Virus record (IMG/VR): IMGVR_UViG_3300045988_149090
Length of the DNA: 53,311 nucleotides
Reading direction: 5' to 3' (one strand)
From: a virus
Position numbers and translations under genes: made by a program. This document shows, one piece after another, positions 1-48,565 of the stretch. The stretch's first letter is position 1. Each line of letters begins with the position of its first letter. Below the pieces are notes generated by a model. The model saw only the letters and a program-made list of their open reading frames with translations, had not been told where the DNA came from and searched no databases.

Positions 1-82
1 CCCCCTTTAGGGGACAATAATAAAGAGAAATTTGGGGTACATTATTGTCCAGAACAATTATCCGACATGACTTTTCTTCCGG
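1..82. repeat. Left arm of terminal inverted repeat (pairs with 53230-53311)
   Basis: The reverse complement of 53230-53311 matches 1-82 at 81/82 positions. The single mismatch at nt 56 is a synonymous ATT/ATA Ile change in the shared reading frame. Similarity stops abruptly at nt 83. The outer limit is unknown because the window ends. Confidence 0.9.
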
Positions 83-390
83 AAATGACATTATATACTT
101 TACATTATGTTTGATATGATATACAGTTTGCTGAATATCAGTAGCCTTTTATGTTTATTTGTTTTTTTTCAAACAATAAAGTATCTTCCTCTTGTTTGCT
201 ATTTAATAGTTAATTGTTACTGGCTTATTATTATATTTGCCCTTTTAGCAGTACTGTATTGTGTGGTGTAAATGTTTAATAATTAATAAATTGAATACAA
301 AAAGTAAGAATGGAAATAATTTTGGGAATTGAGAACTTGTTACCATTTTGTTACTACTAATAATAAACTGTGTGTTTTTATTGAAAGAAT

Positions 391-1431
391 ATGAAAAAGC
401 TATTGAAAATAAAAGAGCCAATAAAGGTGAGAACAAAAAAGTTAGTAAATGGATGTCAATCCATATATCTAGACATATATATGAATGGAAGACGACAATA
501 CGAATTCTTAAAGTTGTATATTATCCCTGAACATAATCAAGCTGACAAAAAACGAAATGTGGAAACGCTAAATTTAGCAAATGCGATTAAGTCTCAGAGG
601 ATTGTGGAAATACAAAATCAAGCTTATGGATTTAATCGTAACAGATTGTCCGATGTGAAGCTGACTGACTATATGAAATTAGTAGCAGAACAAAGTGTAA
701 ACAATAAGGTGCGAAAAAGTACAATACATGCTGTCGTATGTCATTTGAAAAGATATACACCGAATGGAATATTGTTAAGGAAGGTAGACAAAGCCTATTT
801 ATTGGGGTTTATAGATTACTTGAAGAGAGCAAAACAAATACATAGTCAAAAAGAAAAAATGCTACATGTTAACACCCAACTTTATTATTTGAAGATGCTA
901 CGTTATTGTTTGAACTGTGCTGTCTATGAAGATTACATAACTGTTAACCCAATGGATAAAATAAAGAATGAGGATAAGCCAAAACGTTGTAGAACAGAAA
1001 GGGATTATCTCACAATAAAGGAATTAACCAGATTAGTTCATACTCCTTTTTATAATACCTTATTAAAAAAAGCATTTCTATTCAGCTGTTTTTGTGGATT
1101 GAGACATTGTGATATTATTGCATTGAGATGGGAAGATATACGTTATGATGAAAATGGAAATGCACTATTGAATATCATTCAGAAGAAAACGAAAGAAGCC
1201 ATATCGCTTCCACTCAGTTCAGAAGCTATAAAACATTTGCCAAACAGAGGAAATGCCCAAGAGACGGAAAAGGTATTTGCCGGATTGGTCTCATTAGGAC
1301 GGAGTAATGAAATTTTGCATAGATGGGTCGAGCAGGCTGGGATATCGAAACATGTAACCTTTCACGTTGCAAGACATTACCCAAATTCTTTCCCATTGAA
1401 AACAAACGACTTACAAAGAATTGTTTCTTGA
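391..1431 (+). pseudogene. Tyrosine recombinase (phage-integrase family), 5' portion; homology ends after box II (HVARH) at about nt 1377
   Basis: ATG at 391. Box I is present (CGLRHCDIIALRWEDI), followed by ...GISKHVTFHVARH. After that come 19 unrelated codons and a stop. The usual THATxxL...LGH...Y C-terminus is missing here and is found at 52005-52181. Confidence 0.75.
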
Positions 1432-1595
1432 TAGGTAACGATTTGGAAACGAGCGAAGTTCCGTATCTTACCTTGTTTTGCATTAAATCAAAAGAACGCT
1501 GGCTTCAAATGCAAAGGTAGCATTATTTTTTTGAAATACAAACTGTTATAGAGGATGAAATTCCTGTTTACGAAAGGATTCTTTCTTTTATTAGA

Positions 1596-2738
1596 CTAAA
1601 CCGTACAAGGGCACTTATATATGTTTAGCAGTTCATATATTGAAACCGATGGGCACAGAACTTGAATAGCACATTCCTTGCAACAACATCTTTTATTTCT
1701 TGCAAGATACCAAAGACAGCCCTGTGAACCAACCCACTTGTTTATAATGTAAGGTAAATCCATATCTCGCAAAGATTCTATTCTTTCATTTAAGCAACAA
1801 ACTTCACCATTAAAATTGATAGTTAAATGGCCGAAACAAGAGGGATTTATATACTCTTTTACATAACATTCTTTTAGTGTATGGCATGATTGAAGAATTT
1901 CATCTTTAGTCATAATCATTTGTGACTGTAAAGTAATTGTCTTTGTATCCAAAAAGACCGGGCAGAGAATTACATCCTTTCCTATCTTTGATATTTTGTC
2001 CACATCAGAAATCGATGTTATTATATATTTATATAGCAATCTTTCTTCGTTAAAGTTTAGCATATGAAACGGCGTGTGAGAGTCTACCAACAACTCAATT
2101 ACCAGCGAATCAAATTTACGTAGGATTTCTTTAATATAAGAAAAAGGATATGCTAAATAATGAATTCGGTAGATAACCTGTATATTTCGATCTCTTGCAT
2201 ATTCAAGAAACTTCTCTAACTTACCATATGATAATTCTCCTGACAATATGATTTTCTCCAAACAAAAAGAACGAAGTTGCAGGGAAATCTTTTCCATGTC
2301 AATTTCTACACAATTAGTATCTGGGTATTCTAATTGTTGGTATGAGAACGCATTAAGATATGTGAATATTGTATTGTTCAGTAATAATGTAAGGGATGTC
2401 AGCATCATATTTGTGTATGACGTGAGATTATAGCCTAAAGCCTTCTTTTCCTTCTGTAGTGAAGTTGCAATCCTTAATTTTCTTTCTGGGATGTATGGCA
2501 TAAACCCATCATACTGGATGTAATATCCAAAGTGGTTAGTAGCTATCTTTTGCAGCAAGAACTTGGTGTCGCAGTTCTCCTCGATATAGCCAAATCGGTT
2601 TAATCTGTCTATATTATGGTTAGCCAATACAACGTCTTTCAGATATACACCTTTGAACGTTATAGTGTCATATATGAGCAGTTCGGTTGATGTCGCTTTG
2701 ATATAGCAATGTGGGAAAAATATATACAGTCTATTCAT
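1596..2738 (-). CDS. Pseudo-rSAM / SPASM-like partner protein of the RiPP maturase (no CxxxCxxC motif, Cys-rich C-terminus)
   Basis: 380 aa. Its ATG overlaps the upstream stop (ATGA). No N-terminal radical-SAM Cys triad. The C-terminus is Cys-rich (CFGHL...VCCLNE...KRCCCKECAIQVLCP...KCPC). The arrangement resembles the GG-Bacteroidales pseudo-rSAM family as I recall it. Confidence 0.6.
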   Translation of the reverse strand: MNRLYIFFPHCYIKATSTELLIYDTITFKGVYLKDVVLANHNIDRLNRFGYIEENCDTKFLLQKIATNHFGYYIQYDGFMPYIPERKLRIATSLQKEKKALGYNLTSYTNMMLTSLTLLLNNTIFTYLNAFSYQQLEYPDTNCVEIDMEKISLQLRSFCLEKIILSGELSYGKLEKFLEYARDRNIQVIYRIHYLAYPFSYIKEILRKFDSLVIELLVDSHTPFHMLNFNEERLLYKYIITSISDVDKISKIGKDVILCPVFLDTKTITLQSQMIMTKDEILQSCHTLKECYVKEYINPSCFGHLTINFNGEVCCLNERIESLRDMDLPYIINKWVGSQGCLWYLARNKRCCCKECAIQVLCPSVSIYELLNIYKCPCTV

Positions 2739-4180
2739 TTTATAATAATATTATTTTCAAGAATTTCTATTATATTCGGGTGTGACTCTATGTATGATAC
2801 AGCCTCTGACAATAGCTTTGCAAACTTATTCTTAGATGTAAATTCTTCGCACTTACCATTGCTATAACAAAAAGAACATTTTGTACAACAAAACTGCATA
2901 TAGCATTTCTTGCACAAGAATGAAAATTCTGTAATCCTTTTCATGAATCTACTTGCAATATCATTGCAATCAATACGGACACATCCATTGTTGTCTATAA
3001 ATCCTAATGGTGAATCCCTGTTTACTTTCTCACATGGATGTATTTTCCCATCGTAACTTACGAACATTCGTTTTGAGAAAGGAATACAGGTACCTGTTGG
3101 CAGTATCTTGTTGTCTGTATTGTCATCTATGAGTAAGTCTGTCTCTTTATTAAATGAATTATTCAATAGTCTTGTACTAAATAGCAATATTCTATTAAAA
3201 AGAGGATTTTGAGTGATTAAGCCATGCTCCAACGCAATATCTTCAGGAATTTCAAAAGTTTTGAGCATAGACAATATCCTATCTCCATTTTTTGTGTCCT
3301 TTGTAGGAGTATGAACTGGGCTAAAATTTGGTGTCGTATTTAATTGAGATTTAAACCATTCAACTATATTCCTAACGTCACTTATATTGGAAAAAACGGC
3401 ATTATATCGAAATGTTGCAAACCATTTTGGGAACATACTTTCAACATCCATTAAGTTCTTCATTACGATGTCGAACGATGGGGAGCCATTAGGGGTTTTT
3501 CGATAAGAGTCATGTTCTTTGTTTCCGTCAAGGCTAATCAACATTTTGAAATTATGATGTGACAAAAAGTCGGCATGCTTTGATAAAAGCATTGCATTTG
3601 TCGTCATCGTAAAAAATAGTGAACGATTTCGAAATTCAACACATTTGGCATATTCAACAATTTGACGAATGACATCAAAGTTTACCAATGGCTCACCTCC
3701 GTAAAAGCTGATGGCAAAAGGCTCTTTAGGCGCATCCGATTTTGCTTCGCGCTGAAAAAGAACGACCAAATAGTCAATGATGCTTTTTGCTGTTTCAAAT
3801 TTCAGATTCCCCAAAACGCCCCTTCTGCTGTCAAATGTATCATAACCTTCGCTATAACAGCAATACTCGCATCTGAGGTTACAGAGTGTCGTCGTTTCGA
3901 ATATGATTTGGGACAAATTTATCAATGCATTTTGTATTGCATTGCCTGTTATGCATGCATCTAACGATGAGGTAAAATCATCGATGTAACCATATTCCCT
4001 TAATTGTCGAAGGGTCTCGGTCTCTTTATTTTTACCATTTGATATGATATCGTACAGGTCTTTGGGCAAAGGCAATATCGTCTTCGTTGATGGACTATAC
4101 AGATAATAATTGCTATGTTGGGTTTGAAAAGCAATGGACTCCATAAATTTAAAATAAGGAAAGCCAAAGTAATAAAACAA
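2735..4180 (-). CDS. Radical SAM peptide maturase with C-terminal SPASM domain
   Basis: CNLRCEYC (CxxxCxxC) near aa 100. GGEP motif present. The C-terminus is Cys-rich (CIPF...HPCEK...CKKCYMQFCCTKCSFCYSNGKC). The 4180 start is TTG; the first ATG is at 4144. Confidence 0.85.
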   Translation of the reverse strand: MFYYFGFPYFKFMESIAFQTQHSNYYLYSPSTKTILPLPKDLYDIISNGKNKETETLRQLREYGYIDDFTSSLDACITGNAIQNALINLSQIIFETTTLCNLRCEYCCYSEGYDTFDSRRGVLGNLKFETAKSIIDYLVVLFQREAKSDAPKEPFAISFYGGEPLVNFDVIRQIVEYAKCVEFRNRSLFFTMTTNAMLLSKHADFLSHHNFKMLISLDGNKEHDSYRKTPNGSPSFDIVMKNLMDVESMFPKWFATFRYNAVFSNISDVRNIVEWFKSQLNTTPNFSPVHTPTKDTKNGDRILSMLKTFEIPEDIALEHGLITQNPLFNRILLFSTRLLNNSFNKETDLLIDDNTDNKILPTGTCIPFSKRMFVSYDGKIHPCEKVNRDSPLGFIDNNGCVRIDCNDIASRFMKRITEFSFLCKKCYMQFCCTKCSFCYSNGKCEEFTSKNKFAKLLSEAVSYIESHPNIIEILENNIIIK

Positions 4181-4203
4181 TGGCTCTCCTTCAATTAGTG
4201 ATT

Positions 4204-4395
4204 TTAATCAATGTTCCAACTTCCTGCAGAGGCAACGTCATCACACATTGTGATTTCGCCTTCTCTAATGAAGCACTCACAAGGACAATAGCAATTACTA
4301 ATGCGAACAACATTGCCTTTTTGTCCTGCAATTCTCAATTTGTTTTTGAGTTGTTTGTTCTGTTCTTCTATAACAGACAATTTTAATACTCCCAT
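4204..4395 (-). CDS. RiPP-like precursor peptide (63 aa): helical leader plus Cys-rich core NCYCPCECFIREGEITMCDD
   Basis: ATG start, 23 nt upstream of the rSAM gene. The leader LKLSVIEEQNKQLKNKLRIAGQKG resembles GG-Bacteroidales-type leaders but lacks a GG. There are five Cys within 18 residues. Confidence 0.65.
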   Translation of the reverse strand: MGVLKLSVIEEQNKQLKNKLRIAGQKGNVVRISNCYCPCECFIREGEITMCDDVASAGSWNID

Positions 4396-4433
4396 AAGTT
4401 TTTCTTTTTAAACCCCATTTCATTGTTCACAAG

Positions 4434-6200
4434 TCAATCGCAGGGGTATTGCGCTTCGACCTGTTTGTGTATTGTTGTTAGATATTCATCCATAGGAATG
4501 TAAATATTCTTATCGCCATAAAGAGCATCGGTAAAAGTTTTTGGGAAAGCTGCGTATCCGATAAAGGCTCCTCTTAGCATGTACCCGTACTCTTTATTTT
4601 CCACACCTTTATTTTGAACATATCGTTCTATTTGGTCAAAGCCAAAAGGCTTAATAAAGAACGCCATCAAGGACTTCAGTACAACCAGATTATTTGGTAT
4701 GCTGAATGAAGAACATTGATTATGCTTGTATGCCCAAAACTCTCGAAGACTACGAAGTATTAGCTTGCCATTTTCTGTATTCGCATATTCTCGGCACTTG
4801 TATTTATTGGCTGATTCTACTATGAGGTTCAGAACCACATCGTCAGACAACACTCTTTTCTCACTTTTTAGAGCTTCATTAATAATAATGTCAAGAAACG
4901 CTTTCTCTTCAACAGAAGCGTTTACATCAATACTCACAGCAGAGTTTCTTAACGATAGGCATGAATAATTAACTTGACCATTATTTTTGCTTGATGTTTT
5001 TGCTTTACTGATAAGTTCATTCATAATTTCACTGACACGAACAAACAATGCTCCCAAAGTCGTGTCATACACAGAAGCTCCTGTATCAATGTTAGTTATC
5101 TGCTGTTTTATATTACATATGTCTTGTTTAATGGATTTGTACTCGTCATTATCTTCTTCGTATTTTTTGATTTTGTTTTTGAGATATTGTTTGCGTTCAT
5201 ATTCCAAAGTCCCCTTTTTGAAATATTCACGTGTTTTACCCATCTTGATGCCATTGTTGAGTTCTTGATTCTTTATAGAGTTTAATTCTTCAACCAAATC
5301 AGAAATGCCATCACGATATTCTATGTTGTAAAGCTTATTTTCTAATTCTTCTTTTTGAGCCATTAAATTATCTATTCTGTCAGTACCGCTTACTTGCTTG
5401 TTTTCTGAGAGTTCATCCGCACGCGCCTTAGACAATTTTATGATTTCTGAGAACAATTGAATAAGAATGTCGAACAAATTCGTTTTTGTCTTAATGATTC
5501 CGTTATATGCAGCCTTGGCTTTTTTTATAAGTGACATATATTCACCTGCATTCGAAACTGCACTTTCAGAAACCATTACTTGCGTATTTAATCCTGCAAA
5601 TGAATTTTTCAAATCTCGCAATTGGCATGAAAGTCGTTGCTCATGAGGGTCCTCTGCAAATACCATTGCATGGGTGTATGCAACAATCATTCCCTTTAAT
5701 CTATCATAAACATTGTCTTGGACAATGTATTCATGACGCTGAAAAGAAAAGGAATTCGCAATTCTATCAGTAACCAAAGGCTTCTTTGTTTTACCTGTAT
5801 TTATCACGAATTCAGATTTATATTTTTCTATACATTTTACCTCAAACAATATTTGTGATTCTGCAACAAAAGATTCAAGTAAATCATTCGAAGAGAACAG
5901 AAAAGCGACAGCACCCTTTTTGTAATAAATTGTTTTACTATATGTAAATAGGGTTTTACTTTTCTTGACTGGAGTTATATTTGATTTGTCCAAAATTTCC
6001 TCATTGACTTTTAATACGTAATCACCCTCTATTTCCTTTGTTGACAAGATAAGATAGTTAACTCTTTCATTTGTTCCATCTATATAACGGCTCAAATTGT
6101 TGCCATATCCTCTTACTTGATAGAAAGAGAATGGAGATATACTTTCTGAAACAAACGACTCCAGTAAGTTCCATGAATTTATGCCTATATAATAAAACAT
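4434..6200 (-). CDS. 588-aa protein of unknown function (duplicated N-terminal LLESFVxES motif, central K/E/N-rich coiled coil)
   Basis: ATG start, 4 nt after the helicase-like gene stop. I could find no Walker A or nuclease motif by eye. The long open frame in AT-rich DNA supports coding. Confidence 0.7.
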   Translation of the reverse strand: MFYYIGINSWNLLESFVSESISPFSFYQVRGYGNNLSRYIDGTNERVNYLILSTKEIEGDYVLKVNEEILDKSNITPVKKSKTLFTYSKTIYYKKGAVAFLFSSNDLLESFVAESQILFEVKCIEKYKSEFVINTGKTKKPLVTDRIANSFSFQRHEYIVQDNVYDRLKGMIVAYTHAMVFAEDPHEQRLSCQLRDLKNSFAGLNTQVMVSESAVSNAGEYMSLIKKAKAAYNGIIKTKTNLFDILIQLFSEIIKLSKARADELSENKQVSGTDRIDNLMAQKEELENKLYNIEYRDGISDLVEELNSIKNQELNNGIKMGKTREYFKKGTLEYERKQYLKNKIKKYEEDNDEYKSIKQDICNIKQQITNIDTGASVYDTTLGALFVRVSEIMNELISKAKTSSKNNGQVNYSCLSLRNSAVSIDVNASVEEKAFLDIIINEALKSEKRVLSDDVVLNLIVESANKYKCREYANTENGKLILRSLREFWAYKHNQCSSFSIPNNLVVLKSLMAFFIKPFGFDQIERYVQNKGVENKEYGYMLRGAFIGYAAFPKTFTDALYGDKNIYIPMDEYLTTIHKQVEAQYPCD

Positions 6201-6204
6201 ATTT

Positions 6205-7506
6205 CTAATTATTTTCTATTTCAACAACATATTCCTTCGATACATCTTTTAAAAATGATGTTTTCTTGCCCGTGTAGGAAATATAAAGATTACGTGAAGA
6301 ACGAGTACATGCTACATAGAAAGCATTCCTTTTACAGGTATTCGCCTCATTAGCAAATGGAACAAAAACATTGTCGAATTCAGACCCTTTTGCTGCATAG
6401 TATGTAAGAATACATGGTAGGTCGTTATTTGAAAAATCCAAAGTGTTGATTGTCCTAAAAGGAACGACATTTCCAGTTCGATAATGCACCTGAGTATTTA
6501 TCCCTCTTTGTGTTAAAAAATCGTTTACTTCACGCACGTCACTCTCATCAGGAACCAAGATTGCCACATCGTCCAAATCTTCCATTTTTATCCTATTTAA
6601 GATGCCTTCTAACTCTTTCTCTTTGGAAGAGTATTTCGTGATAATGGGTTTTGGATAATTAGGATAGTCGCTATTACCACCATCTTTCATGTTATTTGTC
6701 ATCAAATCCACCTTGACACTTTGAATTTGCTGAGCTACTTTTGCTATGGTCTTTGGCAAACGATAATTGTAATCTAACGAGAAACGTTTATATCCCAAAG
6801 TTTTAGCAATTTCATCAATGGAACTACCATTGAAGTTCATTTGTTGTACAGAATCCCCAAACAAGGAAAGGCTTTTTCCTCTATGGGCTATCATTCTTGA
6901 TTGATAGTCTGATACGTTGAAATCTTGCGCTTCATCGATGATGAGATAATCAATACGGTCTTCAGATTGTTTGTACATGGTTCCACTTGGAATCAGTTCA
7001 AATTTTTCTGTATTTGTCACGCTAAAGCCTGATGTGTATGGAATTTCTCTAAACCAACTAACTCTTCGTCCAAAGGCAGAGTAGAACTTATAATCAACCC
7101 AATCTGCGAAGTCAATTCCATAGGTAGTCTTGTCCTTTTCTGTGCGTTCAAATTTTCTGACGCTTAAATCATTTACCAAATAGAGCGTATTTCTATTTCC
7201 TTTCTCCCAATACACATCTCCAGTCAAATCGAAACCGCGGTGAGTCCAAGCCCATTCATATGCTATACGTTCCTTGTCTAAACCAAGTGCCTGCATACCA
7301 TATGCTATCATTCTCTTCAAGGCCACGGTAAAAATGACAATAGCATAACTTCCTTTATTTTTTGCCTGTAGAGCACGATGGATGGCGAGATTCGTTTTTC
7401 CACTACCAGCCGCTCCTTGTACTATTATATCATCGGTTATACTTTGTATGATGATTTTTCTTTGCGAATCATCCAAGTTTGAAATAAACCACTTTTCTAA
7501 TCTCAT
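6205..7506 (-). CDS. UvrD/Rep-like superfamily-1 helicase-type ATPase (compact, 433 aa)
   Basis: Motifs in SF1 order: GAAGSGKT (Walker A), LIIDEAQD (Walker B), YNYRLP, YYAAKGSEFD, FYVACTRSSRNL. Confidence 0.8.
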   Translation of the reverse strand: MRLEKWFISNLDDSQRKIIIQSITDDIIVQGAAGSGKTNLAIHRALQAKNKGSYAIVIFTVALKRMIAYGMQALGLDKERIAYEWAWTHRGFDLTGDVYWEKGNRNTLYLVNDLSVRKFERTEKDKTTYGIDFADWVDYKFYSAFGRRVSWFREIPYTSGFSVTNTEKFELIPSGTMYKQSEDRIDYLIIDEAQDFNVSDYQSRMIAHRGKSLSLFGDSVQQMNFNGSSIDEIAKTLGYKRFSLDYNYRLPKTIAKVAQQIQSVKVDLMTNNMKDGGNSDYPNYPKPIITKYSSKEKELEGILNRIKMEDLDDVAILVPDESDVREVNDFLTQRGINTQVHYRTGNVVPFRTINTLDFSNNDLPCILTYYAAKGSEFDNVFVPFANEANTCKRNAFYVACTRSSRNLYISYTGKKTSFLKDVSKEYVVEIENN

Positions 7507-7521
7507 AACTTAACCGATTTA

Positions 7522-7665
7522 TTAGAGAAAGGCTATAACGAGAATTGGACGGATCTTACTTTTTTCAGAAGAAGTTCCAATTCTATCATATCCACATCCA
7601 CTCAATGCGCATAACACAATGCTCATAACTATTCCTATGACAATATAAAGACTTTTCTTTTCCAT
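7522..7665 (-). CDS. Small putative lipoprotein (47 aa), first gene of the co-directional operon
   Basis: Not in the ORF track because it is under 60 aa. Translation: MEKKSLYIVIGIVMSIVLCALSGCGYDRIGTSSEKSKIRPILVIAFL, a signal-like hydrophobic stretch plus lipobox LSGC. It ends 15 nt before the helicase ATG. Confidence 0.4.
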   Translation of the reverse strand: MEKKSLYIVIGIVMSIVLCALSGCGYDRIGTSSEKSKIRPILVIAFL

Positions 7666-7695
7666 TTCTTATCTTTTACGTCGAATTTTTCTCCC

Positions 7696-7894
7696 TCTCT
7701 TCGTAAGAGAGGGATTAGGATAGAAACGTACTAAAAATCAACACTTCAAATCATGATAGTTATCTTTTTGCTAAACATTTCTATGTTCTTTCTATGTTTT
7801 TTGATATAAAAAGTTGATTTTCTCCCCGATACATTCTTTGATTTGCGCTATTTTGAGTATTTTTACACCGACAAATCCCTCTCTTACGAAGAGA
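7696..7894. promoter_or_regulatory. Perfect 21-bp inverted repeat pair (7696-7716 / 7874-7894) flanking a 157-bp spacer; candidate invertible or regulatory segment
   Basis: TCTCTTCGTAAGAGAGGGATT at 7696-7716 is the exact reverse complement of 7874-7894. It lies between the integrase stop (7919) and the lipoprotein-helicase operon start (7665). Confidence 0.45.
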
Positions 7895-7918
7895 TAACCT
7901 ATTTTGCTAAACACACTC

Positions 7919-9115
7919 CTACAGATTTTTCAATATCATCTCGTTCGCCTTGTCCACCAAAGAATTGTCCAATGATGCCAGATAGATTTGAGTAGTCGCC
8001 TCGGAATCATGTCCCATTCCCTCGCTGATGACGGAAAGCGGTACATTCTTGTTCTTTGCTATGCTTGCCCAAGAATGGCGGCTGACATACATAGTGAGAT
8101 TCACTTGCAATCCTACGATTATTGCTATTTCTTTTAGCTTGTTATTGACGAGGCGTAGTGCATTACGGTATTGTCGCTGCTCATTACCCACCTTATTGAT
8201 TATAGGCAGCAGGTAATCAGTCCCATTTCTCTGGTATTTGTCGACTATTTCCTGCATACACTTCTCCCACCTGATGAAAAGCTGTTGCCCCGTCTTGCGT
8301 CTGCGGTAAGAAAGGATTCCATTCTGTAAGTCTTTCTTTTTCAAGTAGGCCATGTCAATGAACGACATTCCACGTGTATAGAACGAGAAGAGGAACATAT
8401 CCCTTGCAAACTCCAATGACGGATTCATGGACAAGTCCAATTCCTTAATCTGTTTAATGGCTTTCAGTGGAATGGCACGTTTCACGGTCTTGTCTATGCC
8501 TGTATAGACGTGCCGGAATGGATTGCGCTGTTCCGTCAGTCCTTTCTCCACGGCACGATTATACACCGCACGGAGTATGCGCATATAGAATGAGACTGTG
8601 TTCATGGTTATATCCTGCGCCTTCATGTAAGCCTCATATTCCATCATAAGGTCGGAGCTAAATTCGTCCAACAGGACATCGCTATCTTCCCGGAAGCGCA
8701 TGAAGCTTTTTAGCGTGGCTGCATAATTCTCCGCTGTCCGTTCCTTGTTAAGCAGTTTCAGACGAACAATGACACCCTCCATGAACCGGAAGAAGGATTG
8801 TTCCCTTGTGGCCTCTTGATATTCCTCCACAATACTATCTGCCGTGAAAACATTACCGCTGTTTTCCATTCTTCCAATGATGGCTTTCAGCCTCTTCAAA
8901 TCCCATCCGATACGTTCCTTTATCGAACGTAGAATATCTGTTCTTCCATTGGCAGAAAGAATTACTACACCGCTTTTCTCATTCCATTCCTCCCTGAACA
9001 CCCGGTAATCCGTCTTTATCTGACGGATTACTCGGTTATGGATGACTTGGTAGTATATTGTCCCTTCCTTGTCTACGACAGTCGAAGGGCGGAACTTGAC
9101 CTTTACCGATGCCAT
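7919..9115 (-). CDS. Tyrosine integrase of the mobilizable element (Bacteroides IntDOT/NBU-like type)
   Basis: 398 aa, ATG start. N-terminal arm-binding-like MASVKVKFRPSTVVDKEGTIYYQV. C-terminal SRHSWAS...GMGHDSEATTQIYL supplies R-H...H...Y. It lies next to the Mob genes. Confidence 0.85.
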   Translation of the reverse strand: MASVKVKFRPSTVVDKEGTIYYQVIHNRVIRQIKTDYRVFREEWNEKSGVVILSANGRTDILRSIKERIGWDLKRLKAIIGRMENSGNVFTADSIVEEYQEATREQSFFRFMEGVIVRLKLLNKERTAENYAATLKSFMRFREDSDVLLDEFSSDLMMEYEAYMKAQDITMNTVSFYMRILRAVYNRAVEKGLTEQRNPFRHVYTGIDKTVKRAIPLKAIKQIKELDLSMNPSLEFARDMFLFSFYTRGMSFIDMAYLKKKDLQNGILSYRRRKTGQQLFIRWEKCMQEIVDKYQRNGTDYLLPIINKVGNEQRQYRNALRLVNNKLKEIAIIVGLQVNLTMYVSRHSWASIAKNKNVPLSVISEGMGHDSEATTQIYLASLDNSLVDKANEMILKNL

Positions 9116-9118
9116 ATA

Positions 9119-9787
9119 TCAATCGGATTTAAGGTTATCGGTCGGAGATTTGCCTTTCATGTCTTCCTGCATGATGCTGTCGGAAACGGCTTTCAAAGTC
9201 GTGCCATATCCGTCCGCCTGTTTCCGTACCCACTCGATGGCTTTTTCGTCCCGGCGGATGTCGAACACCTTGTTCAGCCAAAGCACATCATTGGCATTGC
9301 ATCCGCCCCAAGAGCGGATGGCACGGAACTTCAGCGCATCATCGGCATACTGACGTTTGGACTGCCATTGTCCGATGTTGCCCCACAGGGACAAGGCGCA
9401 TATCACACCAATCCCCACAACGAAAGAAAAGACCTTGCTCGATTTGATGTCGAAGCTGTGCCTGTGGATATGATCCTGTCGGGGCAGTTGCTGTTGAACA
9501 TCCGGTACTTTAAACTGTTCTTCAAGGAAACCGATTCGCTTCAAAATCACGGTTGTCACCTGTGCATAAGCCTCCCATTGCCTTGCCAACAAGTCCTTAA
9601 TCTCTTCGGATTGAGCCTTTGTCGTTTCCACAACAGCCTCCTTAATCGGGGATAAATCCGGCTTGTCATTCCCGATTTGAGGCTGTCGGTCTGCCACGTC
9701 GGGCAACTCTTCCAATTTACTTTTGATGCCATTTAAGGTTGTCTTGATTTCCTCAAAGAGGATGAATACATTGTTATTGTCTGCCAT
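9119..9787 (-). CDS. Mobilization accessory protein (MobC-like, one predicted TM helix) downstream of the relaxase
   Basis: ATG at 9787 (the track start at 9796 is TTG). It follows the relaxase stop by 2 nt. Hydrophobic segment VFSFVVGIGVICALSLW. The position is typical of the Bacteroides mobA-B-C order. Confidence 0.5.
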   Translation of the reverse strand: MADNNNVFILFEEIKTTLNGIKSKLEELPDVADRQPQIGNDKPDLSPIKEAVVETTKAQSEEIKDLLARQWEAYAQVTTVILKRIGFLEEQFKVPDVQQQLPRQDHIHRHSFDIKSSKVFSFVVGIGVICALSLWGNIGQWQSKRQYADDALKFRAIRSWGGCNANDVLWLNKVFDIRRDEKAIEWVRKQADGYGTTLKAVSDSIMQEDMKGKSPTDNLKSD

Positions 9788-9789
9788 AG

Positions 9790-10658
9790 TTACCAATTGA
9801 TTTTACGTTGTTTCTTCTTTTTCTTGTTTCTCAAATAAGGATCATAAGGCTGCTGTTCCTCCGGTTGATTGCTTGGAGAAAACAAGCCTAAAGACCCCTC
9901 GATAAGATTGCCGCCACTATCTGAAATTTGGCTTATCTCGTCCCGATTAGATTGCGGATGTGGTTGCGGTCGCATCTGTCGTTCCTCGTAATTGTTACGG
10001 CTCAATGCCGCGTCAATCTTGGAATAGCTGAAAGCGCGGTCTATCTTCGAGCCGTTGAAGCGGTAGCCGTTCATCGTAAAGACTATACCTTGAATTTCGT
10101 TTGTCTGCCCCTTGTACTTGAACTGCACATCGACGCCCTGCCGCTTCAACCGTTCAAGCAAGGTGTTCCAATCCTTGCATCTGCCGACTTCCGCCTTCAA
10201 GATTTGATATAGCCCGTACCTCGTCTTGTCCGGCTCTCGCAAACGCTCTACCTTCACTTGCTCCTTACCATTGGCAAAGTGAAGCCCGTATTTTTTGATA
10301 AGCTCCTTGCAGATGCGCTCGCTGCGAAAGCGGTCGTTCCTGTCGGAAATGGTCTTGCCGTTATTGTCGATACGGTTGAACGCTATATGCACGTGCGGAT
10401 GCTCCTTGTCGAAGTGCCGCCCGATGATGTATTGCGTATCCTTGATGCCCATCCGCTCCATATACTCACGGGCTATCCGAGCCATGACCGCATTGTTCAG
10501 CCGTGGCGCATCCTCCTTTGAGAAGCTCAATGCGATATGCCCGACAGCCTTTGTCACCCTCGGATTCATCCGTGCCTGACCGGTGAATCCCTGCGCTATC
10601 GTGTCGTTATTTTCCAAAAATAAGCCGTCCGCATCTATGATTTGAGTACCTTTTATAA
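9790..10658 (-). pseudogene. MobA/VirD2-type relaxase, N-terminally truncated by the prophage end
   Basis: Relaxase core present: GHIALSFS...HFDKEHPHVHIAFNRIDNNGKTISD. About 20 N-terminal codons and an ATG are missing. The upstream part of the open frame (to the TTG at 10815) runs through the phage end repeats. The boundary is uncertain by roughly 20 nt. Confidence 0.6.
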
Positions 10659-10730
10659 TCCGCAAAACGAAATGTTTCGACTTTTGGGAACGAAACGTTC
10701 TTTTTCCCAAAACGAAACGTTCTTTTTTTC
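10659..10730. repeat. Three tandem about 22-bp end repeats (ACGAAA cores at 10667, 10690, 10712): R1-R3-like transposase binding sites
   Basis: The three sites are tccgcaaaACGAAAtgtttcga / tgggaACGAAAcgttcttttt / cccaaaACGAAAcgttcttttt, spaced 23 and 22 bp. This mirrors the contiguous R-end sites of Mu. Confidence 0.7.
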
Positions 10731-10940
10731 GCACCCCTAAACACCCCCTACCCTGCCCTTTTCCGCTTAATTTCTCACTTCTAATTATTACTAAGAAATT
10801 TGGTAATCTCGCCAAAAATCGCTACATTTGTATAGTATAAATTGGTGTGTTGTGCACTCTCTCACACATACTAAAGCACTATCAAATTTCATTTTCTTAA
10901 AACATTTTCGACCGGCTTACGCCGGTATTTATAATAACAC

Positions 10941-10973
10941 GAACGGTGTTCGGAAACCATCCGAACACCGTTC
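10941..10973. terminator. Stem-loop terminator downstream of the tail-fibre gene
   Basis: GAACGGTGTTCGG-aaaccat-CCGAACACCGTTC, a 13-bp perfect stem followed by a T-rich tract on the plus strand. It lies 43 nt past the fibre stop codon on the minus strand. Confidence 0.6.
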
Positions 10974-11015
10974 TTTCGTTTTAGTCGCTTCGCTCCACGC
11001 TTTGGCGCTTTGCGC

Positions 11016-14000
11016 TTACAACACTTCGCGAATCGCTTTATACGCTTCCACGCTTTCCGCCCGAACGAGTTTGCCGCGGAAGGCCAGACGGGAGCCGACA
11101 TTCGCGCTCGAGTACGATGCATCGCTATTCGCATTCGCATTCGACACGCCGCCACTCGCATACGCATTGGAGGACCCGCGATAGACCACACGGAAGGCTG
11201 CGGTACTTATCCAATATTTATCGCAATAATATGTACTGGACGAGCCGTTAGCTGTTCCTACCGGTACGATATCCATGTATTTACCATGGGCAACACCTGT
11301 TATCCACTGGTCACTGATCGTTTTACCCTTCACCCAACGCACCGTGCCGTCCGGCATCCAAATACGCCATTTACCTTGGTTGCCACTATCGTTGGGTAAA
11401 TCAACACCGTCCATCATCTCGTACTTATGGCCGTAGATGTCCTCATAGCCCAGACAACTGATATTGTTTACCTGAGTCACGGTCGGAGAACCATACTCGT
11501 CCTGGCCACGATACCAAGCGTACTGGTGGATAGAACCGTCCACGATGGAATTCGTGATCTTGTCGTTTATTTTATACGCTTCGTCATAACCGATCGTATC
11601 CTGCATACCATAACCGGCTGTACCGCCCGTGATACGATTGCTCGTATGCTGACCGCCTCCGCACTGTTCCTGGCTGTCACGACGGCCATATCTTGCGTAA
11701 AACAAGTTCGCTATACGGGAGTGCATCAACGCGTCTATCTGTTGCATACCGCGCTGAACCGAGTAATAATGAAAGTCGATCCAGTTCATGCTGGCCGTCG
11801 TGGAATTACCTGTTATGCATGAACGCAACTTGCTACCTACCACGCTACTGCCTACTACCGCGCAAAGATGTTCCTCGTTGGCCACCCAATCGGGCTCCAT
11901 ATCCTCGATCTTGTCGGAGTTGGAAAGAACCACCTTGTCAAACTCGGCCGTGTTCAGGATCGAGAAGTGCAAGGCCGTGGCGTCCTCCGGAACATCCGAT
12001 ATCAAGTACATGCCGGCCTCGAACTTCAGACCGATCGTAGAGACCACGATGGTTTTGACCACGTTTCCGGAGCCGTCAACAAATAGACTGCCGACCAAAC
12101 CCGTACCGGGAACACTCGGAAAACGTACACGCTTATAGCCTTGTACATCCACCTTGCAGACTGAATAGGTCTTGTCCGTGCTATAAGAATCCTTCAACGT
12201 GGGTTTGCCACTCAAAAGTTTGCGCTCTGTAAGGAAACCGCCCTGCGTGTCTTTGATGTCGTCCAACGTCAGCACCGTCACATCCGGAACAGGAGGCATA
12301 TCGTCAGGGCCGTTGGAACTGTAACAGCTGTAATATTTCTCGTTCAGGTAGTCATTGACACCTTTCGACCAAAAGAACGGTTCGTACATCATCCAGTCGC
12401 CCTCGCTGCTGTCAAGTTTGGCTGCGCTGCCATCGTAGTATTTATTACTGCTGGTATCATCCAACGGACAATAGGTCATCTCGCCGTCCGGATTGTTCAC
12501 GTCAACCGTCTGGCCCGCCATCTCCACTTTACGGCTCGTGGGCTTTTTCGTCACCTTGGCAAGCACACGGTGGCGCTTCTTGAGGATCGCCGCCACGTGG
12601 GCATTCATGACGTAAGTATTGCCATACTTATAACCGGTCTCGTTGTCCGGGTTGGAAATGTTGGCATCGTCCGGAGCGCTTTCGTCCGACTCGATGATGC
12701 TGTAGGCCGGTTGTACGATCTCCAGTTCCGGATACCGCTCACGATACCGGTCGGCCTGTTCGTCATCCATGTACTTTGTCAGGCAGAGCCTGCCACGCAA
12801 TCCGGAATGACGGTTGTCTATCGCTCCGGTGGAGGTATAGGTACCATAATCGTAGTATTTCCCGAGCAGCCTGCCGTCATCCTCCATATCGATGTCAAGG
12901 ACAAAACGCTCCAGTTTACCGCTACCGTTCAACTTGGCCTGATGAAGACGTTCCAGCATGGCAAACCCGTCAATGCCCGGACAACCCATGAACCGGTAGC
13001 CTCGCACGTTACCGATGCCATCCAGTACCAATCCGCTCTCTGCCAACCTGGGAAGATATTCCAGAAACAGTTCCTCTATCGTTTCCGGCAAGCATAACTG
13101 CACAACAGGCGCACCGGTGGCAAGTTTCACGCGGGTAAGCCCCGTGCCTCTCACGTCCAGCTTCTTCAACCGTCCCTGCCAGCTCAAGTCCAAGGTCGTC
13201 ACGTTGCCGTTATCGCCATTCCGTGCCAGCAGGTTGTTGCGCATATTAAGCTCTTCCAGAAGAAGCATGCCGTTCGTCGAGGCCATGAATGAACCGTTAC
13301 GATAACCGCTGGCTTTCTCCACGCTCATGTCAAGTTTAACCAATGAGGTAAGCAAGCCGAAATTGAATCCGATGGCGAACGCGTCCTCATGCCACACCAG
13401 CTCCTTGACTTTGGCCGCGCCGATAATCTTCAGCGGGTCGTTCTCACCGAAGGCACGGGTCAGCTGCAGGGAGTGGAGCACGTCCGCATCCACCACGCCG
13501 CTGTCGGCCTGCACGCCGTTGCTGGTGGAAAGCTGCACACGGTACGGGATGGTCAGCCGGTACTGCATCGGCTTCAGTTTGTATGCCTTGTCCAGCGATG
13601 CCGTACTCTGGTAGAACTGGGCGCCCAGCGTAGAGACATAACCGTACTCCACCTGCTTCAGGTCATACCTGCGCTGGATGAAATAGTTACGGTGAGCTTT
13701 CAACGAACCCTTCAGACCGTAGATCTGCGGATACGTCTGTTTGGCACCGTCAGCCCCCACCGGCATCTCGTTCAGGAACGGATACACATACTTGAAGATG
13801 CCTGATTTGTTGTACAGCCGGCTGCACCACTTCTTCATCTGCTCGGTGTCGAAATGGTCAACGGCCTTCTGGATGCTGAAGGCACTCATGAAGCTGGTAC
13901 CGCCGTTCACACCCCTGGTCATCACTTCCTCCAGCAGATTGCCCATATTGCCCAGTATCAGGTTCCACAGCCAGCTGTTGTGTCCCTGCATCACATAGGC

Positions 14001-25800: not shown

Positions 25801-26477
25801 CGCACCATCTGGGCACGGCCGTCCTTCTCTATCTCGGTCATTTCCTTGAGTGATATGTTGAATTCATCCACGCCTTTTTTGGCACTGAACAGGTTTTTCG
25901 TCCAATCCCAGATTTCATCACCGTACATTACCAGCAGCATGATGCCGGTGGTCATGGCCGTCTGCCAGGAAAAGAGCGAGGACAGGACCTGTTTCCATAC
26001 CGGTGTGCCTTTCTTGCCTGACTTCTGCAGCTCATCATATTCCTTACGGGCACGGGCCAGTTCGTCCGTAAAAATCGGCAGGTTGTTGGATATGGCCAGA
26101 AAGAACATCTGCGGTCCCATGGCCAAAGAAGGCATTTCACGTGCCATCTGCTGGATGCTGTTGTGAAGCCCGTTGAACTGGCGCTGTGCATTGGGCATGT
26201 CTGCAGGGGTGACCTGCACGGATTCCGATTCCTCCTGCAGCAGTTTCAGTTTGCCACGCAATTCCTCAAGCTGCTTCTCCAGTGCATGGATCTGCGCGAT
26301 ATTGGCACTCTGGTCCAGATTGGGGGCAGCCGTCTCCCCGGCAAGGCGCAGCCTTTCCAGTTCAGCCTCCAGCAGTCTGACGGTATTACGCAGTTCCAGC
26401 GCCTCACGCTCGGCCTTGTTCATGCCGGGCGTGAGTTTGTCCTTCATCAAAAATTCAACTTCTACAGGTTTGCTCAT
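22830..26477 (-). CDS. Tail tape measure protein, 1215 aa
   Basis: Long, with coiled-coil-rich and Gly-rich hydrophobic segments (GVIGQIISAILSILDLL...). It is preceded by a frameshifted chaperone pair. Confidence 0.85.
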   Translation of the reverse strand: MSKPVEVEFLMKDKLTPGMNKAEREALELRNTVRLLEAELERLRLAGETAAPNLDQSANIAQIHALEKQLEELRGKLKLLQEESESVQVTPADMPNAQRQFNGLHNSIQQMAREMPSLAMGPQMFFLAISNNLPIFTDELARARKEYDELQKSGKKGTPVWKQVLSSLFSWQTAMTTGIMLLVMYGDEIWDWTKNLFSAKKGVDEFNISLKEMTEIEKDGRAQMVRTRFELKSVIDEIKNFTGSKEQEKAKVEELNRKYGESFGYYKTLSEWYDTLIQKSEDYVQVLLHQANVQNLVKKAAEADEEVNKIKAQKPEEAESAMGFFGKWGQYIIQSSMAESGQFYDAQAAIKKHDQEAYDILLKNAENKRDGYLKKAEEEVKKAAEAAKKGNIGGHIDPKQSGKNPEAEAKQRLAIERRLAQDLAALQAENRKEEIDRMQAGTEKKLAQIEYDYNARKEEINRQEADWKRENKEAGLSTGDNGLTREQQDELEKARASNTESRKKAEADVYREEAEAMRDYLKEYGTFQQQKLAIAEEYAEKIRKAQSQGERLTLEKQRDAAVHKVDMEALTQKIDWGAAFGDLTGLLADQMKNLLGELKQYVKTDEFKKTGAADQQVVYDAIERIQSMLPGGNGTLDFARLQTQMHALGDAVTRVQNAELQQEAAFARLKAAQTDYNKALESGNQAEIERTKIALQTAQSSSASADEEYLNATSEMKALAGEVKSASRDTVDGLNMVSNGLHGFASGTLQGSFEGIQNMLTGLSKLNIGGKVGDAISRMSETLSSAGVIGQIISAILSILDLLKDGIGPIISSLIDTIFNAITGILDNILSGDLFKQIGGSLVKGIGGLLNTVSFGGFNKLFGIGGNAREVQAAIDRLTDRNEKLQTSIEDLTDTIKASKGTKSVEAYRDAYKYQKETNANYLQIAQEQARYSKSHHSWNYYWGGFNQAQIDKLSGQIGRRWDGNLWSLSPEEMKALRSNVDMWTQIQNTGKGGYGGRLTEKLDDYIDQAGKLEELTDQLYEGLTGISFDGMYSSFIDNLMNMKYGAKDAAEDISEYFMKAMLSNKIGELYSEKLKGWWEKFGKAMEDNELTEAERNALMEEYMQYMDEALALRDNLAAATGYDKTEAGGTSQSAKAGGYTAMTYDQGTKLEGMFTGGLQHWSSMDDRLESVSEKMDTAEGHLARIAENTGVSAGHLGEIKDEIKKMIRDGLKVK

Positions 26478-30100: not shown

Positions 30101-30111
30101 TTTAAAGGTTT

Positions 30112-33946: not shown

Positions 33947-33950
33947 GACT

Positions 33951-48553: not shown

Positions 48554-48565
48554 ACTCACACCTCC

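What the first reader, a model, noticed from the sequence alone, without database searches (positions are those of the whole stretch)
4434..7506. Compact SF1 helicase-like ATPase plus 588-aa orphan protein: candidate uncharacterised two-gene defence module
The 433-aa protein keeps all core SF1 motifs (GAAGSGKT, IIDEAQD, YNYR, KGSEFD, VACTRS) but is much shorter than UvrD/Rep. Its partner, 4 nt downstream, has a duplicated N-terminal motif, a long K/E/N-rich coiled coil and a helical C-terminal domain. I see no ATPase, nuclease, Toprim or HEPN signature in it, so it does not match the helicase-partner pairs I know (Gabija, Hachiman, Nhi and similar). The pair sits on an integrative mobilizable element next to an integrase and downstream of a possible invertible segment.
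Basis: inference. Interest (0 to 1): 0.65.

Follow-up and report, generated by a model that had tools for sequence, protein, structure and literature searches.

The report
Unnamed helicase-plus-effector defence gene pair
Two tightly linked genes, a stripped-down DNA helicase and a 588-residue protein of no known family, form a conserved pair that sits among anti-virus genes on mobile DNA of gut Bacteroidales and matches no named defence system.

Summary
A 433-aa SF1/UvrD-like ATPase (6205-7506, minus strand) with all core motifs is followed 4 nt later by a 588-aa protein (4434-6200). That protein has no Pfam, NCBIfam, PADLOC or PDB sequence match.

The partner is not an orphan: at least 603 clusters at 50% identity exist, mostly in Bacteroidota. 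In all 44 related loci with upstream DNA, a homologous helicase lies directly upstream, from a 4-nt overlap to about 16 nt apart.

Neighbours include type I R-M, retron-type and UG19 reverse transcriptases, Tiamat, AbiE, HipA, Thoeris, Schlafen/AlbA and WYL regulators. Many loci lie in the cargo region of conjugative elements. This supports a defence role, which no experiment has tested.

A confident model of the first 150 residues gives fold matches only to NAD-dependent nucleic-acid ADP-ribosyltransferases (Tpt1/KptA, DarT). Profile comparisons give no sequence support, and no de-ADP-ribosylating partner is present.

The closest known analogue is DarHTG (2026): DarT, an antitoxin and a UvrD-like helicase lacking domain 2B.

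In the window's clade the pair is always followed by a Cys-rich peptide and a radical-SAM maturase pair. Another clade has a methyltransferase and DUF1848 instead.

Verdict: a real, widespread, unnamed helicase-effector module, and a new variant of a known kind.

The parts
6205..7506 (-). Compact SF1/UvrD-like ATPase (433 aa). Walker A is at K37 and Walker B at D191/E192. It is far shorter than UvrD, Rep or HelD.
   Evidence: ORF. Pfam UvrD_C, UvrD-helicase and AAA_19. PADLOC RTasHel and GajB give partial hits only. The best PDB sequence match is the B. subtilis HelD 1A/2A core, 4e-10. Motifs are invariant in 13 homologues.
5751..6200 (-). Partner residues 1-150: the alpha/beta N-terminal domain and the most conserved part of the protein. 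The invariant residues are E19, S22, P23, Y27, R30, G33 and K122. The predicted fold resembles Tpt1/KptA/DarT ADP-ribosyltransferases.
   Evidence: Domain model pLDDT 81.5, pTM 0.80. In Foldseek against PDB, the top 15 hits are all Tpt1/KptA/DarT (best E 7e-3, prob 0.99; DarT prob 0.84-0.96). BFVD best hit E 3.5e-4. Invariant residues; conservation by region. There is no sequence support.
4986..5750 (-). Partner residues 151-405: a K/E/N-rich bundle of long helices, the least conserved region.
   Evidence: Helices 155-402 in the model. Whole-protein Foldseek returns only coiled-coil and helical-bundle noise, nothing at E<=0.001. Mean pairwise identity is 0.49, against 0.63 for the N-domain.
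4434..4985 (-). Partner residues 406-588 plus the stop codon: a beta-hairpin and a helical C-terminal domain. The family-wide motif is WGAxxGFAxLPKTFT (G548 invariant).
4204..4395 (-). 63-aa Cys-rich ORF (CxCPCxC, C-terminal SWNID), a probable precursor peptide for the downstream radical-SAM enzyme. It is linked to the pair only in this clade.
   Evidence: ORF. It is 63-90% identical in L001, L004, L010 and L035 at the same position. It has no NCBIfam hit.
2735..4180 (-). Radical SAM/SPASM peptide maturase.
   Evidence: NCBIfam TIGR04148 GG_samocin_CFB, 318.8 bits against a cut-off of 300. Pfam Radical_SAM.
1596..2738 (-). Pseudo-radical-SAM partner protein. It overlaps the maturase stop codon by 4 nt.
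   Evidence: TIGR04150, 77 bits, below the cut-off of 250. Syntenic in related loci.
7696..7894 (.). Perfect 21-bp inverted repeats (7696-7716 and 7874-7894) around a 157-bp segment, lying between the integrase and the helicase operon. This is a recombination site: possibly an invertible segment, and also the end of the integrase/relaxase element.
   Evidence: Five metagenome contigs share the window's orientation. L064 shows an inverted junction. L072 joins the repeat to other DNA. There is no Bacteroides -7 promoter motif inside.
7919..9115 (-). Tyrosine integrase of the neighbouring mobilizable element.
   Evidence: Pfam Phage_int_SAM_5, Phage_integrase and Arm-DNA-bind_5.
9790..10815 (-). 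MobA/VirD2-type relaxase of the neighbouring mobilizable element.
   Evidence: Pfam Relaxase, 1.9e-36.

Best explanation
The two genes form the conserved core of an unnamed helicase-plus-effector immune module against phages or other invading DNA. It travels as cargo on Bacteroidales conjugative and mobilizable elements and in defence islands.

Shown:
- The two genes are inherited as a unit and are probably translationally coupled.
- The ATPase motifs are under strict conservation.
- The partner diverges much faster than the helicase.
- The neighbours are defence genes.

Inferred mechanism:
- The 2B-less UvrD/HelD-like motor loads on an abnormal nucleic-acid structure made by an invader, such as DNA ends or replication intermediates, and exposes single strands.
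- The partner is held on the motor through its helical bundle and C-terminal domain.
- Its N-terminal ART-like domain then uses NAD+ to modify the exposed nucleic acid, as DarT does on ssDNA or Tpt1 on RNA/DNA phosphates. This stalls replication of the invader, possibly at the cost of the cell.

Accessory genes differ by clade and probably tune or regulate the core. They are a WYL repressor, a SAM methyltransferase with DUF1848, an ExoX-like C-terminal protein, or, as in this window, a Cys-rich peptide with its radical-SAM maturase pair.
For: Pairing: the helicase is immediately upstream of the partner on the same strand in all 44 loci that include upstream DNA. The spacing runs from -4 to about +16 nt. 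These loci give 32 distinct identity pairs, and divergence is correlated (Spearman 0.85). The pairing holds for partners only 29-31% identical, in Sphingobacterium and environmental contigs.

Selection pattern: where the helicase is 82-84% identical, the partner is 47-56%.

Intact ATPase motifs.

Defence neighbourhood:
- WYL regulator directly upstream in several clades.
- Retron-type RT and Schlafen/AlbA.
- RT with HisKin-conflict and iREC.
- Tiamat TmtA and a Mokosh-like helicase.
- Type I R-M abutting upstream and a UG19 RT with RTas1465 12 nt downstream.
- Type I R-M, AbiEi/AbiEii and a PD-(D/E)XK nuclease in the variable flank of a conjugative element.
- HipA, SIR2 and CHAT-TPR.
- Thoeris ThsA/ThsB.

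ART-like fold. The only Pfam family hit by more than one N-domain is 2CompART.

Precedent: in DarHTG, a UvrD-like helicase without domain 2B is required together with the DarT active site for defence (PMC13069673).
Against: - There is no experimental evidence of any kind.
- The ART assignment rests on fold search alone (TM 0.45-0.54, best PDB E 7e-3).
- hhalign of the N-domain profile gives 0.07% probability against four DarT sequences and 1.7% against four Tpt1 ART lobes. The PDB profile search finds nothing.
- By my visual comparison with the DarT and Tpt1 sequences retrieved, not a computed alignment, the strand-1 His of DarT/Tpt1 (YHFTH / LYHGT) appears replaced by Tyr, Trp or Phe (YYIP, FWIP).
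- E120 is not strictly conserved.
- No Macro, ARH or NADAR gene that could reverse ADP-ribosylation is seen in any locus.
- I computed no formal enrichment statistic against a genomic background.
- In the window itself the immediate neighbours are a peptide-maturation trio and mobile-element genes, not known defence genes.
Confidence: 0.55

Rival explanations
1. The pair is a defence module, but the partner is not an ADP-ribosyltransferase. Its N-domain could be a novel nuclease, an NAD/ADP-ribose-binding sensor or a purely structural adaptor. The toxic or protective activity would then come from the helicase (DNA unwinding or NTP depletion, as proposed for GajB) or from another part of the partner.
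For: There is no sequence-level link to any ART and the canonical strand-1 His appears absent by visual comparison with the sequences. No antitoxin-like hydrolase is present in any locus. The (D/E)-V-K motif at residues 120-122 and the invariant K122 could also fit a nuclease-type site.
Against: In fold search the first 15 PDB hits are all Tpt1/KptA/DarT and no nuclease folds appear. MazF-type hits have probability 0.01-0.02. The model does not place residues 120-122 in a beta-strand, as a PD-(D/E)XK site would require.
Confidence: 0.22
2. The pair serves the mobile element itself. It could be a replication, transfer or maintenance helicase with its loader or adaptor, or an exclusion function, rather than host immunity.
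For: Most loci are on conjugative or mobilizable elements, between tra genes and a relaxase. The helicase is very strongly conserved. UvrD/PcrA-type helicases support rolling-circle replication of some integrative elements (general knowledge).
Against: - The pair occurs in elements with unrelated backbones and in loci without transfer genes within 8 kb: L042 in the Sphingobacterium chromosome, and L044 between an R-M system and an RT system.
- Within one element family it sits in the variable cargo region.
- It is lost to IS insertion in L045/L046.
- The partner evolves fast, which is unusual for a housekeeping adaptor.
- WYL regulators are typical of defence operons (PMC9122601, listed).
Confidence: 0.1
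3. In this clade the functional unit is the five-gene operon: helicase, partner, Cys-rich peptide, radical-SAM maturase and pseudo-rSAM. The pair would regulate the modified peptide, provide immunity to it, or be activated by it.
For: The five-gene order is kept although the maturase has diverged to 43% identity and the pseudo-rSAM to 25%. Gaps are short and no terminator-like site lies on the coding strand between 4100 and 8000. A second clade carries another radical-SAM-like protein (DUF1848) after the partner. No exporter or peptidase gene lies beside the trio in the window.
Against: Most clades of the pair lack the trio entirely: L005-L008, L015-L033 and L042-L048. TIGR04148-type maturase clusters are known as self-contained peptide systems (NCBIfam naming). 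The pair is therefore the only invariant core.
Confidence: 0.08
4. The helicase is a HelD/HelR-like RNA-polymerase recycling ATPase, and the partner supplies the polymerase-binding arms in trans.
For: The best NCBIfam hit (HelD_BACSU, 4e-19) and the best PDB sequence hit (6wvk HelD, 4e-10) are to the HelD 1A/2A core. The partner is rich in long helical hairpins.
Against: The scores are far below family cut-offs (67.9 against 419). The helicase matches only the C-terminal third of the HelD model and lacks HelD's extra N-terminal and inserted regions (the arm architecture itself is general knowledge). Foldseek of the partner returns no HelD in its listed hits. The genomic context is defence and mobile DNA, not transcription.
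Confidence: 0.03

Closest known systems
DarHTG (Liu-DS3; DarT + DarG3 + DarH), Nucleic Acids Res 2026, PMC13069673
   Same: It has a UvrD-family helicase lacking domain 2B, encoded with an ART-fold nucleic-acid modifier. Both the helicase ATP site and the ART active site are needed for anti-phage defence in E. coli.
   Different: DarHTG has a canonical DarT (DUF4433) as a separate small protein plus an ADP-ribosylglycohydrolase-like antitoxin. Here the ART-like domain is undetectable by sequence. It is fused to about 440 residues of helical bundle and C-terminal domain, and no antitoxin gene exists. I could not obtain DarH sequences, so I did not test homology between the helicases.
Gabija (GajA/GajB) and type II Gabija (GajB/GajC)
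   Same: Both are two-gene operons of a UvrD-like helicase plus an effector of about 580 aa. The helicase here hits many GajB models (best 3e-17).
   Different: The partner has no OLD-type ATPase or Toprim (GajA) and no MazF-like fold (GajC). The GajB hits are partial. The type II GajB has its Walker A at K252 because of an extra N-terminal domain, whereas here it is at K37.
DarTG toxin-antitoxin defence
   Same: Predicted fold of the effector domain, and the idea of blocking replication by ADP-ribosylating DNA (PMC9503650).
   Different: There is no DUF4433 match, no Macro or NADAR antitoxin, the strand-1 His appears absent, and a dedicated helicase is present.
Accessory genes of UG35 and UG25 reverse-transcriptase systems (Mestre et al. 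2022, PMC9226505)
   Same: The best PADLOC hit of the helicase is RTasHel, the UvrD-like helicase associated with UG35 RTs. One clade of the pair is flanked by a methyltransferase resembling the UG35 N-terminal domain and by DUF1848, the partner of UG25.
   Different: There is no reverse transcriptase in the operon. The partner matches no RT model. Where an RT lies nearby it is of an unrelated type, retron-like or UG19.
HelD/HelR RNA-polymerase recycling ATPases
   Same: Closest solved sequence for the 1A/2A motor core.
   Different: The helicase is about 340 residues shorter and matches only the C-terminal motor core. Scores are far below the family cut-offs.

Membership tests
Gabija | GajB: UvrD-like SF1 helicase | tested here: inconclusive
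   Partial hits to many PADLOC GajB models (best 3.1e-17, 60 bits, three stretches). An equally good hit goes to RTasHel.
Gabija | GajA: OLD-family ATPase plus Toprim nuclease partner | tested here: not met
   The partner has no hit in PADLOC, Pfam or NCBIfam. Fold search shows no Toprim or ABC ATPase.
DarTG / DarHTG | DarT (DUF4433) ADP-ribosyltransferase recognisable by sequence | tested here: not met
   No Pfam hit at E<=10 in 26 N-domains. hhalign against four DarT sequences gives probability 0.07%.
DarTG / DarHTG | ART fold of the effector | tested here: inconclusive
   Foldseek top 15 PDB hits are all Tpt1/KptA/DarT (E 7e-3 to 1.2, prob up to 0.99, TM 0.32-0.54). BFVD best hit E 3.5e-4. 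I could not map catalytic residues because no coordinates were available.
DarTG / DarHTG | Cognate de-ADP-ribosylating antitoxin (Macro, NADAR or ARH) | tested here: not met
   None is present among the neighbours in the window or in about 20 distinct loci. The single Macro fusion (P0059) is the tail of a neighbouring Thoeris ThsA.
DarTG / DarHTG | UvrD-like helicase lacking domain 2B (DarH) | tested here: inconclusive
   At 433 aa it is about 240-290 residues shorter than Rep or UvrD. Matches cover only the core motifs. I made no structure of the helicase and had no DarH sequence to compare.
UG/Abi (DRT) reverse-transcriptase systems | Reverse transcriptase gene in the operon | tested here: not met
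   No RVT_1 or RT model hits either protein. Nearby RTs in other loci are of unrelated types.
Hachiman | HamA (DUF1837) plus SF2 HamB helicase | tested here: not met
   There is no PADLOC Ham hit, and the helicase is SF1.
Nhi / AbiO single-protein nuclease-helicases | Nuclease domain fused to the SF1 helicase | tested here: not met
   Only weak partial hits to the helicase part (Nhi 3.9e-9, AbiO 1e-7). There is no nuclease domain.
HelD/HelR | Full-length match above the curated cut-off, covering the N-terminal and inserted regions as well as the motor core | tested here: not met
   67.9 bits against a cut-off of 419. Only model positions 541-777 are matched.
TIGR04148-type radical-SAM peptide cluster (neighbour, not the pair) | Maturase above cut-off, plus the pseudo-rSAM (TIGR04150) and a family-model precursor peptide | tested here: inconclusive
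   Maturase: 318.8 bits against a cut-off of 300, met. Pseudo-rSAM: 77 bits against 250, below cut-off. Peptide: no NCBIfam hit, although it is conserved and Cys-rich.

The most novel reading that the evidence does not exclude
The partner founds a new clade of nucleic-acid ADP-ribosyltransferases. This clade would have lost the canonical H-Y-E / R-S-E signature and use the invariant set E19, S22, P23, Y27, R30, G33 and K122. It would need no antitoxin, because the enzyme is held inactive by its own helical bundle and C-terminal domain until a dedicated 2B-less UvrD-like motor presents single-stranded invader DNA. Clade-specific radical-SAM-type accessories (peptide maturase or DUF1848 with a methyltransferase) would add a second layer, such as self-marking or peptide-based control.
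Probability: 0.22. Interest if true: 0.8.

Novelty: new variant of a known kind. Interest (0 to 1): 0.6.

Why it matters
Gut Bacteroidales are among the most abundant human symbionts, yet their phage defences are poorly charted because most discovery work uses E. coli or Bacillus. One helicase variant of this pair is indexed in more than 2,700 blocks of the public assembly collection and is annotated only as 'ATP-binding domain-containing protein'. The partner has no annotation at all.

If the pair is a defence system, it adds a common determinant of phage and plasmid susceptibility that spreads on conjugative elements in the gut. If the ART-like reading is right, it gives a self-contained enzyme that is delivered by a helicase, needs no antitoxin and modifies nucleic acid. 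That would extend the DarT concept and could interest DNA-modification tool builders.

Tried and rejected
- Sequence searches of the partner found nothing: Pfam, NCBIfam, PADLOC, PHROGs, PDB by phmmer, and PDB with an N-domain profile. Ten distant homologues also gave nothing meaningful.
- Whole-protein Foldseek against PDB returned only coiled-coil and helical-bundle noise. Modelling the N-domain alone was needed.
- hhalign of the N-domain against DarT and against the Tpt1 ART lobe was negative.
- BLAST found no relative of the pair in plasmids (DNA) or of the partner in phages (protein).
- The search for related loci with the very divergent alignment failed for lack of conserved stretches. 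I repeated it with the closer alignment.
- I considered that the adjacent reverse transcriptases belong to the system. I rejected this because they are of three unrelated types with their own partners.
- I considered that the Macro-domain fusion P0059 links the partner to ADP-ribose chemistry. I rejected this because it is the C-terminus of a neighbouring Thoeris ThsA followed by ThsB.
- I considered a PD-(D/E)XK site at E120-V-K122. It is not supported by the model's secondary structure or by fold hits.
- I tested the invertible-promoter idea. The repeats are real and one contig shows an inverted junction. However, no Bacteroides -7 motif lies inside, and another contig shows the repeat is also an element end. 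This is unresolved.
- The 47-aa lipoprotein-like ORF upstream of the helicase (7522-7665) is not conserved.
- Two integrase fragments at the window ends do not align as halves of one gene.
- The DarHTG paper holds no sequences as text, so I could not compare DarH with this helicase.
Full report
**1. What is there**

The ORF list shows two minus-strand genes. One encodes a 433-aa protein at 6205-7506 and the other a 588-aa protein at 4434-6200, with four bases between them.

It matches UvrD_C, UvrD-helicase and AAA_19 in Pfam. Its defence-model hits are all partial: RTasHel 2e-18, GajB 3e-17, Nhi and AbiO weaker. Its best curated-family hit is the C-terminal third of HelD, at 68 bits against a cut-off of 419. 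The best solved sequence is B. subtilis HelD, core domains only.

Thirteen helicases down to 48% identity keep Walker A and B, GDxxQ, NYRxPK, AKGxEF and VAxTR without exception. The ATPase is therefore under selection.

The second protein has no match in Pfam, NCBIfam, PADLOC or PDB by sequence. It has only a trivial coiled-coil hit in PHROGs.

The block lies in a 30-36% G+C stretch (positions 1-8000). The adjoining 8-11 kb is 45-48% G+C and most of the remainder is 45-60%.

**2. The partner is a family, and the pair is the unit**

A word-indexed search found 287 relatives, almost all unnamed. An exhaustive profile search found 603 clusters at 50% identity, 301 of them below 1e-10. These include 600-770-aa proteins that share the N-terminal 200-250 residues and a C-terminal WGAxxGFAxLPKTFT motif.

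A species-representative genome scan returned 25 loci. All but one are from Bacteroidales (Prevotella, Bacteroides, Phocaeicola, Parabacteroides); the exception is a MAG labelled Ruminiclostridium. More distant members occur in Sphingobacterium and environmental contigs.

In every one of 44 loci that include upstream DNA, a homologue of the helicase sits directly upstream on the same strand. The spacing runs from a 4-nt overlap to about 16 nt.

Divergence of the two genes is correlated (Spearman 0.85 over 32 distinct pairs), but the partner always diverges faster. Helicase/partner identities to the window are 92/74%, 82-84/47-56%, 75-79/45-46%, 59-61/40-43% and 45/29-31%.

Within the partner, the N-domain is the most conserved region and the helical middle the least.

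**3. Context**

The commonest helicase variant (P0132) is indexed in 2,752 blocks of the assembly collection. It lies between the tra genes and the relaxase of Bacteroidales conjugative elements. Its flank is variable and can hold type I R-M with a Schlafen/AlbA protein, AbiEi/AbiEii or a PD-(D/E)XK nuclease.

Other contexts are:
- An HTH gene and a WYL regulator upstream, with a retron-type RT and Schlafen/AlbA downstream, in Prevotella corporis.
- WYL upstream, with an RT plus HisKin-conflict and iREC downstream.
- Tiamat TmtA and a Mokosh-like helicase.
- HipA, SIR2 and CHAT-TPR.
- Type I R-M abutting upstream, and a UG19 RT with RTas1465 12 nt downstream.
- Thoeris ThsA/ThsB.

The nearby RTs are of three unrelated types, so they are island neighbours and not parts of the system.

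No named system was found in PADLOC v2. Literature searches found no description of this pair.

I did not compute an enrichment statistic. The defence-island claim rests on about a dozen distinct contexts read by eye.

**4. Clade-specific accessories**

In the window's clade the pair is always followed by three genes. These are a 62-63-aa Cys-rich ORF (CxCPCxC...SWNID), a radical SAM/SPASM maturase (TIGR04148, above cut-off) and a pseudo-rSAM protein.

This order persists although the maturase has fallen to 43% identity and the pseudo-rSAM to 25%. No terminator-like site lies on the coding strand, so co-transcription is likely. This step is inferred.

Another clade has a SAM methyltransferase overlapping the helicase start and DUF1848 after the partner. 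These two domains are the accessories of the UG35 and UG25 RT systems of Mestre et al. 2022. No RT is present in that clade.

The Sphingobacterium clade adds a small ExoX-like C-terminal protein.

Only the helicase and the partner are universal.

**5. Structure**

The full-length model is confident (pLDDT 82, pTM 0.69). It has an alpha/beta domain (1-135) with one low-confidence loop (26-46) that nevertheless holds invariant residues. It then has nine long helices (155-402), a hairpin and a helical C-terminal domain. Searching PDB with it gave only helical noise.

I modelled residues 1-150 alone (pLDDT 81.5, pTM 0.80). The first 15 PDB matches are all NAD-dependent nucleic-acid ADP-ribosyltransferases:
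- Yeast Tpt1: E 7e-3, probability 0.99, TM 0.45/0.54.
- Thermus DarT in four states: probability 0.84-0.96.
- Archaeal KptA/Tpt1, Thermosipho DarTG and M. tuberculosis DarT.

From rank 16 on, nearly everything else has probability at or below 0.03; the few higher-probability exceptions are further Tpt1/KptA entries.

Against predicted viral structures the best match is E 3.5e-4. Further hits are uncharacterised proteins of jumbo phages, giant viruses, a baculovirus and an iridovirus, plus one PARP-catalytic-domain protein. These are virus groups known to encode ARTs (PMC9503650).

The only Pfam family touched by more than one of 26 N-domains is 2CompART, at a weak E of 0.056.

Several results count against the ART reading:
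- Profile-profile comparison with DarT gives 0.07% probability and with the Tpt1 ART lobe 1.7%.
- By eye, the first strand-helix unit resembles DarT and Tpt1 in pattern: YYIPxxSxNFNNIFSTESISP against LYHFTHxxNLxSILxxGLLS and FLYHGTxxxLxxIxxxGL. However, the position where I would place the His holds an aromatic residue. This is my reading of the sequences, not a computed alignment.
- No reversing hydrolase accompanies the pair in any locus.

I put the ART-like fold at roughly 60% and an active ART at roughly 30%.

**6. Mechanism and comparison**

The best-supported reading is a helicase-plus-effector immune module. The motor detects or processes invader nucleic acid, and the fast-evolving partner executes.

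The nearest published analogue is DarHTG. There a UvrD-like helicase lacking domain 2B is required, together with the DarT active site, for defence.

This pair differs from DarHTG in three ways. It has no recognisable DarT sequence. The ART-like domain is fused to about 440 further residues. There is no antitoxin.

It fails the membership tests for Gabija (no GajA), type II Gabija (no MazF-like GajC, different helicase architecture), Hachiman, Nhi/AbiO, DRT systems and HelD.

The rivals, in order of likelihood, are: the same role without ART chemistry, a mobile-element function, a five-gene peptide-linked unit, and a HelD-like role.

**7. Surroundings**

The 21-bp perfect inverted repeats at 7696-7716 and 7874-7894 are real. 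Five metagenome contigs share the window's arrangement. One contig (L064) carries the helicase side joined to the inner segment in the inverted orientation for 100 nt before unrelated DNA. Another (L072) joins the repeat to a different flank.

The repeat is therefore a recombination site of the adjacent integrase. It also marks the end of the integrase/relaxase element, so the pair lies just outside that element. No Bacteroides -7 motif lies inside the segment.

Positions 11-50 kb are a Hankyphage-like transposable prophage inserted in that element.

**8. Verdict**

The pair is a widespread, unnamed member of the helicase-effector class, with a likely ART-like effector. It is a new variant of a known kind. 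Interest is 0.6, limited by the absence of any functional test and by the fold-only basis of the mechanism.

Noticed in passing
window 11016-50000: A Hankyphage-like transposable prophage, about 75% identical to Bacteroides phage p00 over the RT region. It encodes a terminase (31728-33287), portal (33804-35261), major head protein (29036-30115), tape-measure-like protein (22830-26477), tail-fibre-like protein (18473-22342), a 2173-aa protein (11016-17537), a DGR-type reverse transcriptase (37302-38603) and a Mu-like transposase (46541-48559). Contig L059 joins window 7874-10654 to 51701-52135 with only 5.6 kb between, so the prophage sits inside the integrase/relaxase element.
   Followed up: partly
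window 7696-7894; L064, L072: L064 shows the 157-bp segment in inverted orientation next to the helicase-side repeat. L072 shows the same repeat joined to unrelated DNA. The site is both a possible switch and an element boundary. No promoter motif lies inside it.
   Followed up: partly
window 1596-4395: A radical-SAM peptide trio (Cys-rich 63-aa ORF, TIGR04148 maturase, pseudo-rSAM) with no exporter or leader peptidase beside it. The peptide stays 63-90% identical where the maturase is only 43-78% identical. The peptide matches no NCBIfam precursor model.
   Followed up: partly
L021, L023-L025, L032, L033, L047, L048: A four-gene variant: a SAM methyltransferase (similar to the N-terminal domain of UG35 RTs), the helicase, the partner, then zero to three small ORFs, then DUF1848 (the UG25-associated gene). 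The accessory toolkit of two RT systems is reused here without an RT.
   Followed up: partly
L075 (protein P0059): Partner residues 1-432 are fused in frame to the C-terminal Macro part of a Thoeris ThsA, followed by ThsB_TIR. This is either a deletion between neighbouring defence systems or an assembly chimera. It was seen in a single contig.
   Followed up: yes
L045, L046: An IS21-family insertion has cut the helicase to its last 126 residues, while the partner and the ExoX-like gene remain.
   Followed up: no
window 391-1431 and 51945-52181: Two tyrosine-integrase fragments lie at the ends of the window. One is cut just after its HVARH motif. The other is only a C-terminal piece (FHTARH...Y). 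They do not align as two halves of one gene.
   Followed up: partly
window 7522-7665 (-): A 47-aa ORF with a lipoprotein-type signal (LSGC) lies just upstream of the helicase. It is not conserved in related loci.
   Followed up: yes
window 1-11000: G+C rises in steps: 30-36% up to 8 kb, 45-48% over the integrase/relaxase genes, and mostly 50-60% in the prophage. This suggests three pieces of different origin lying side by side.
   Followed up: no
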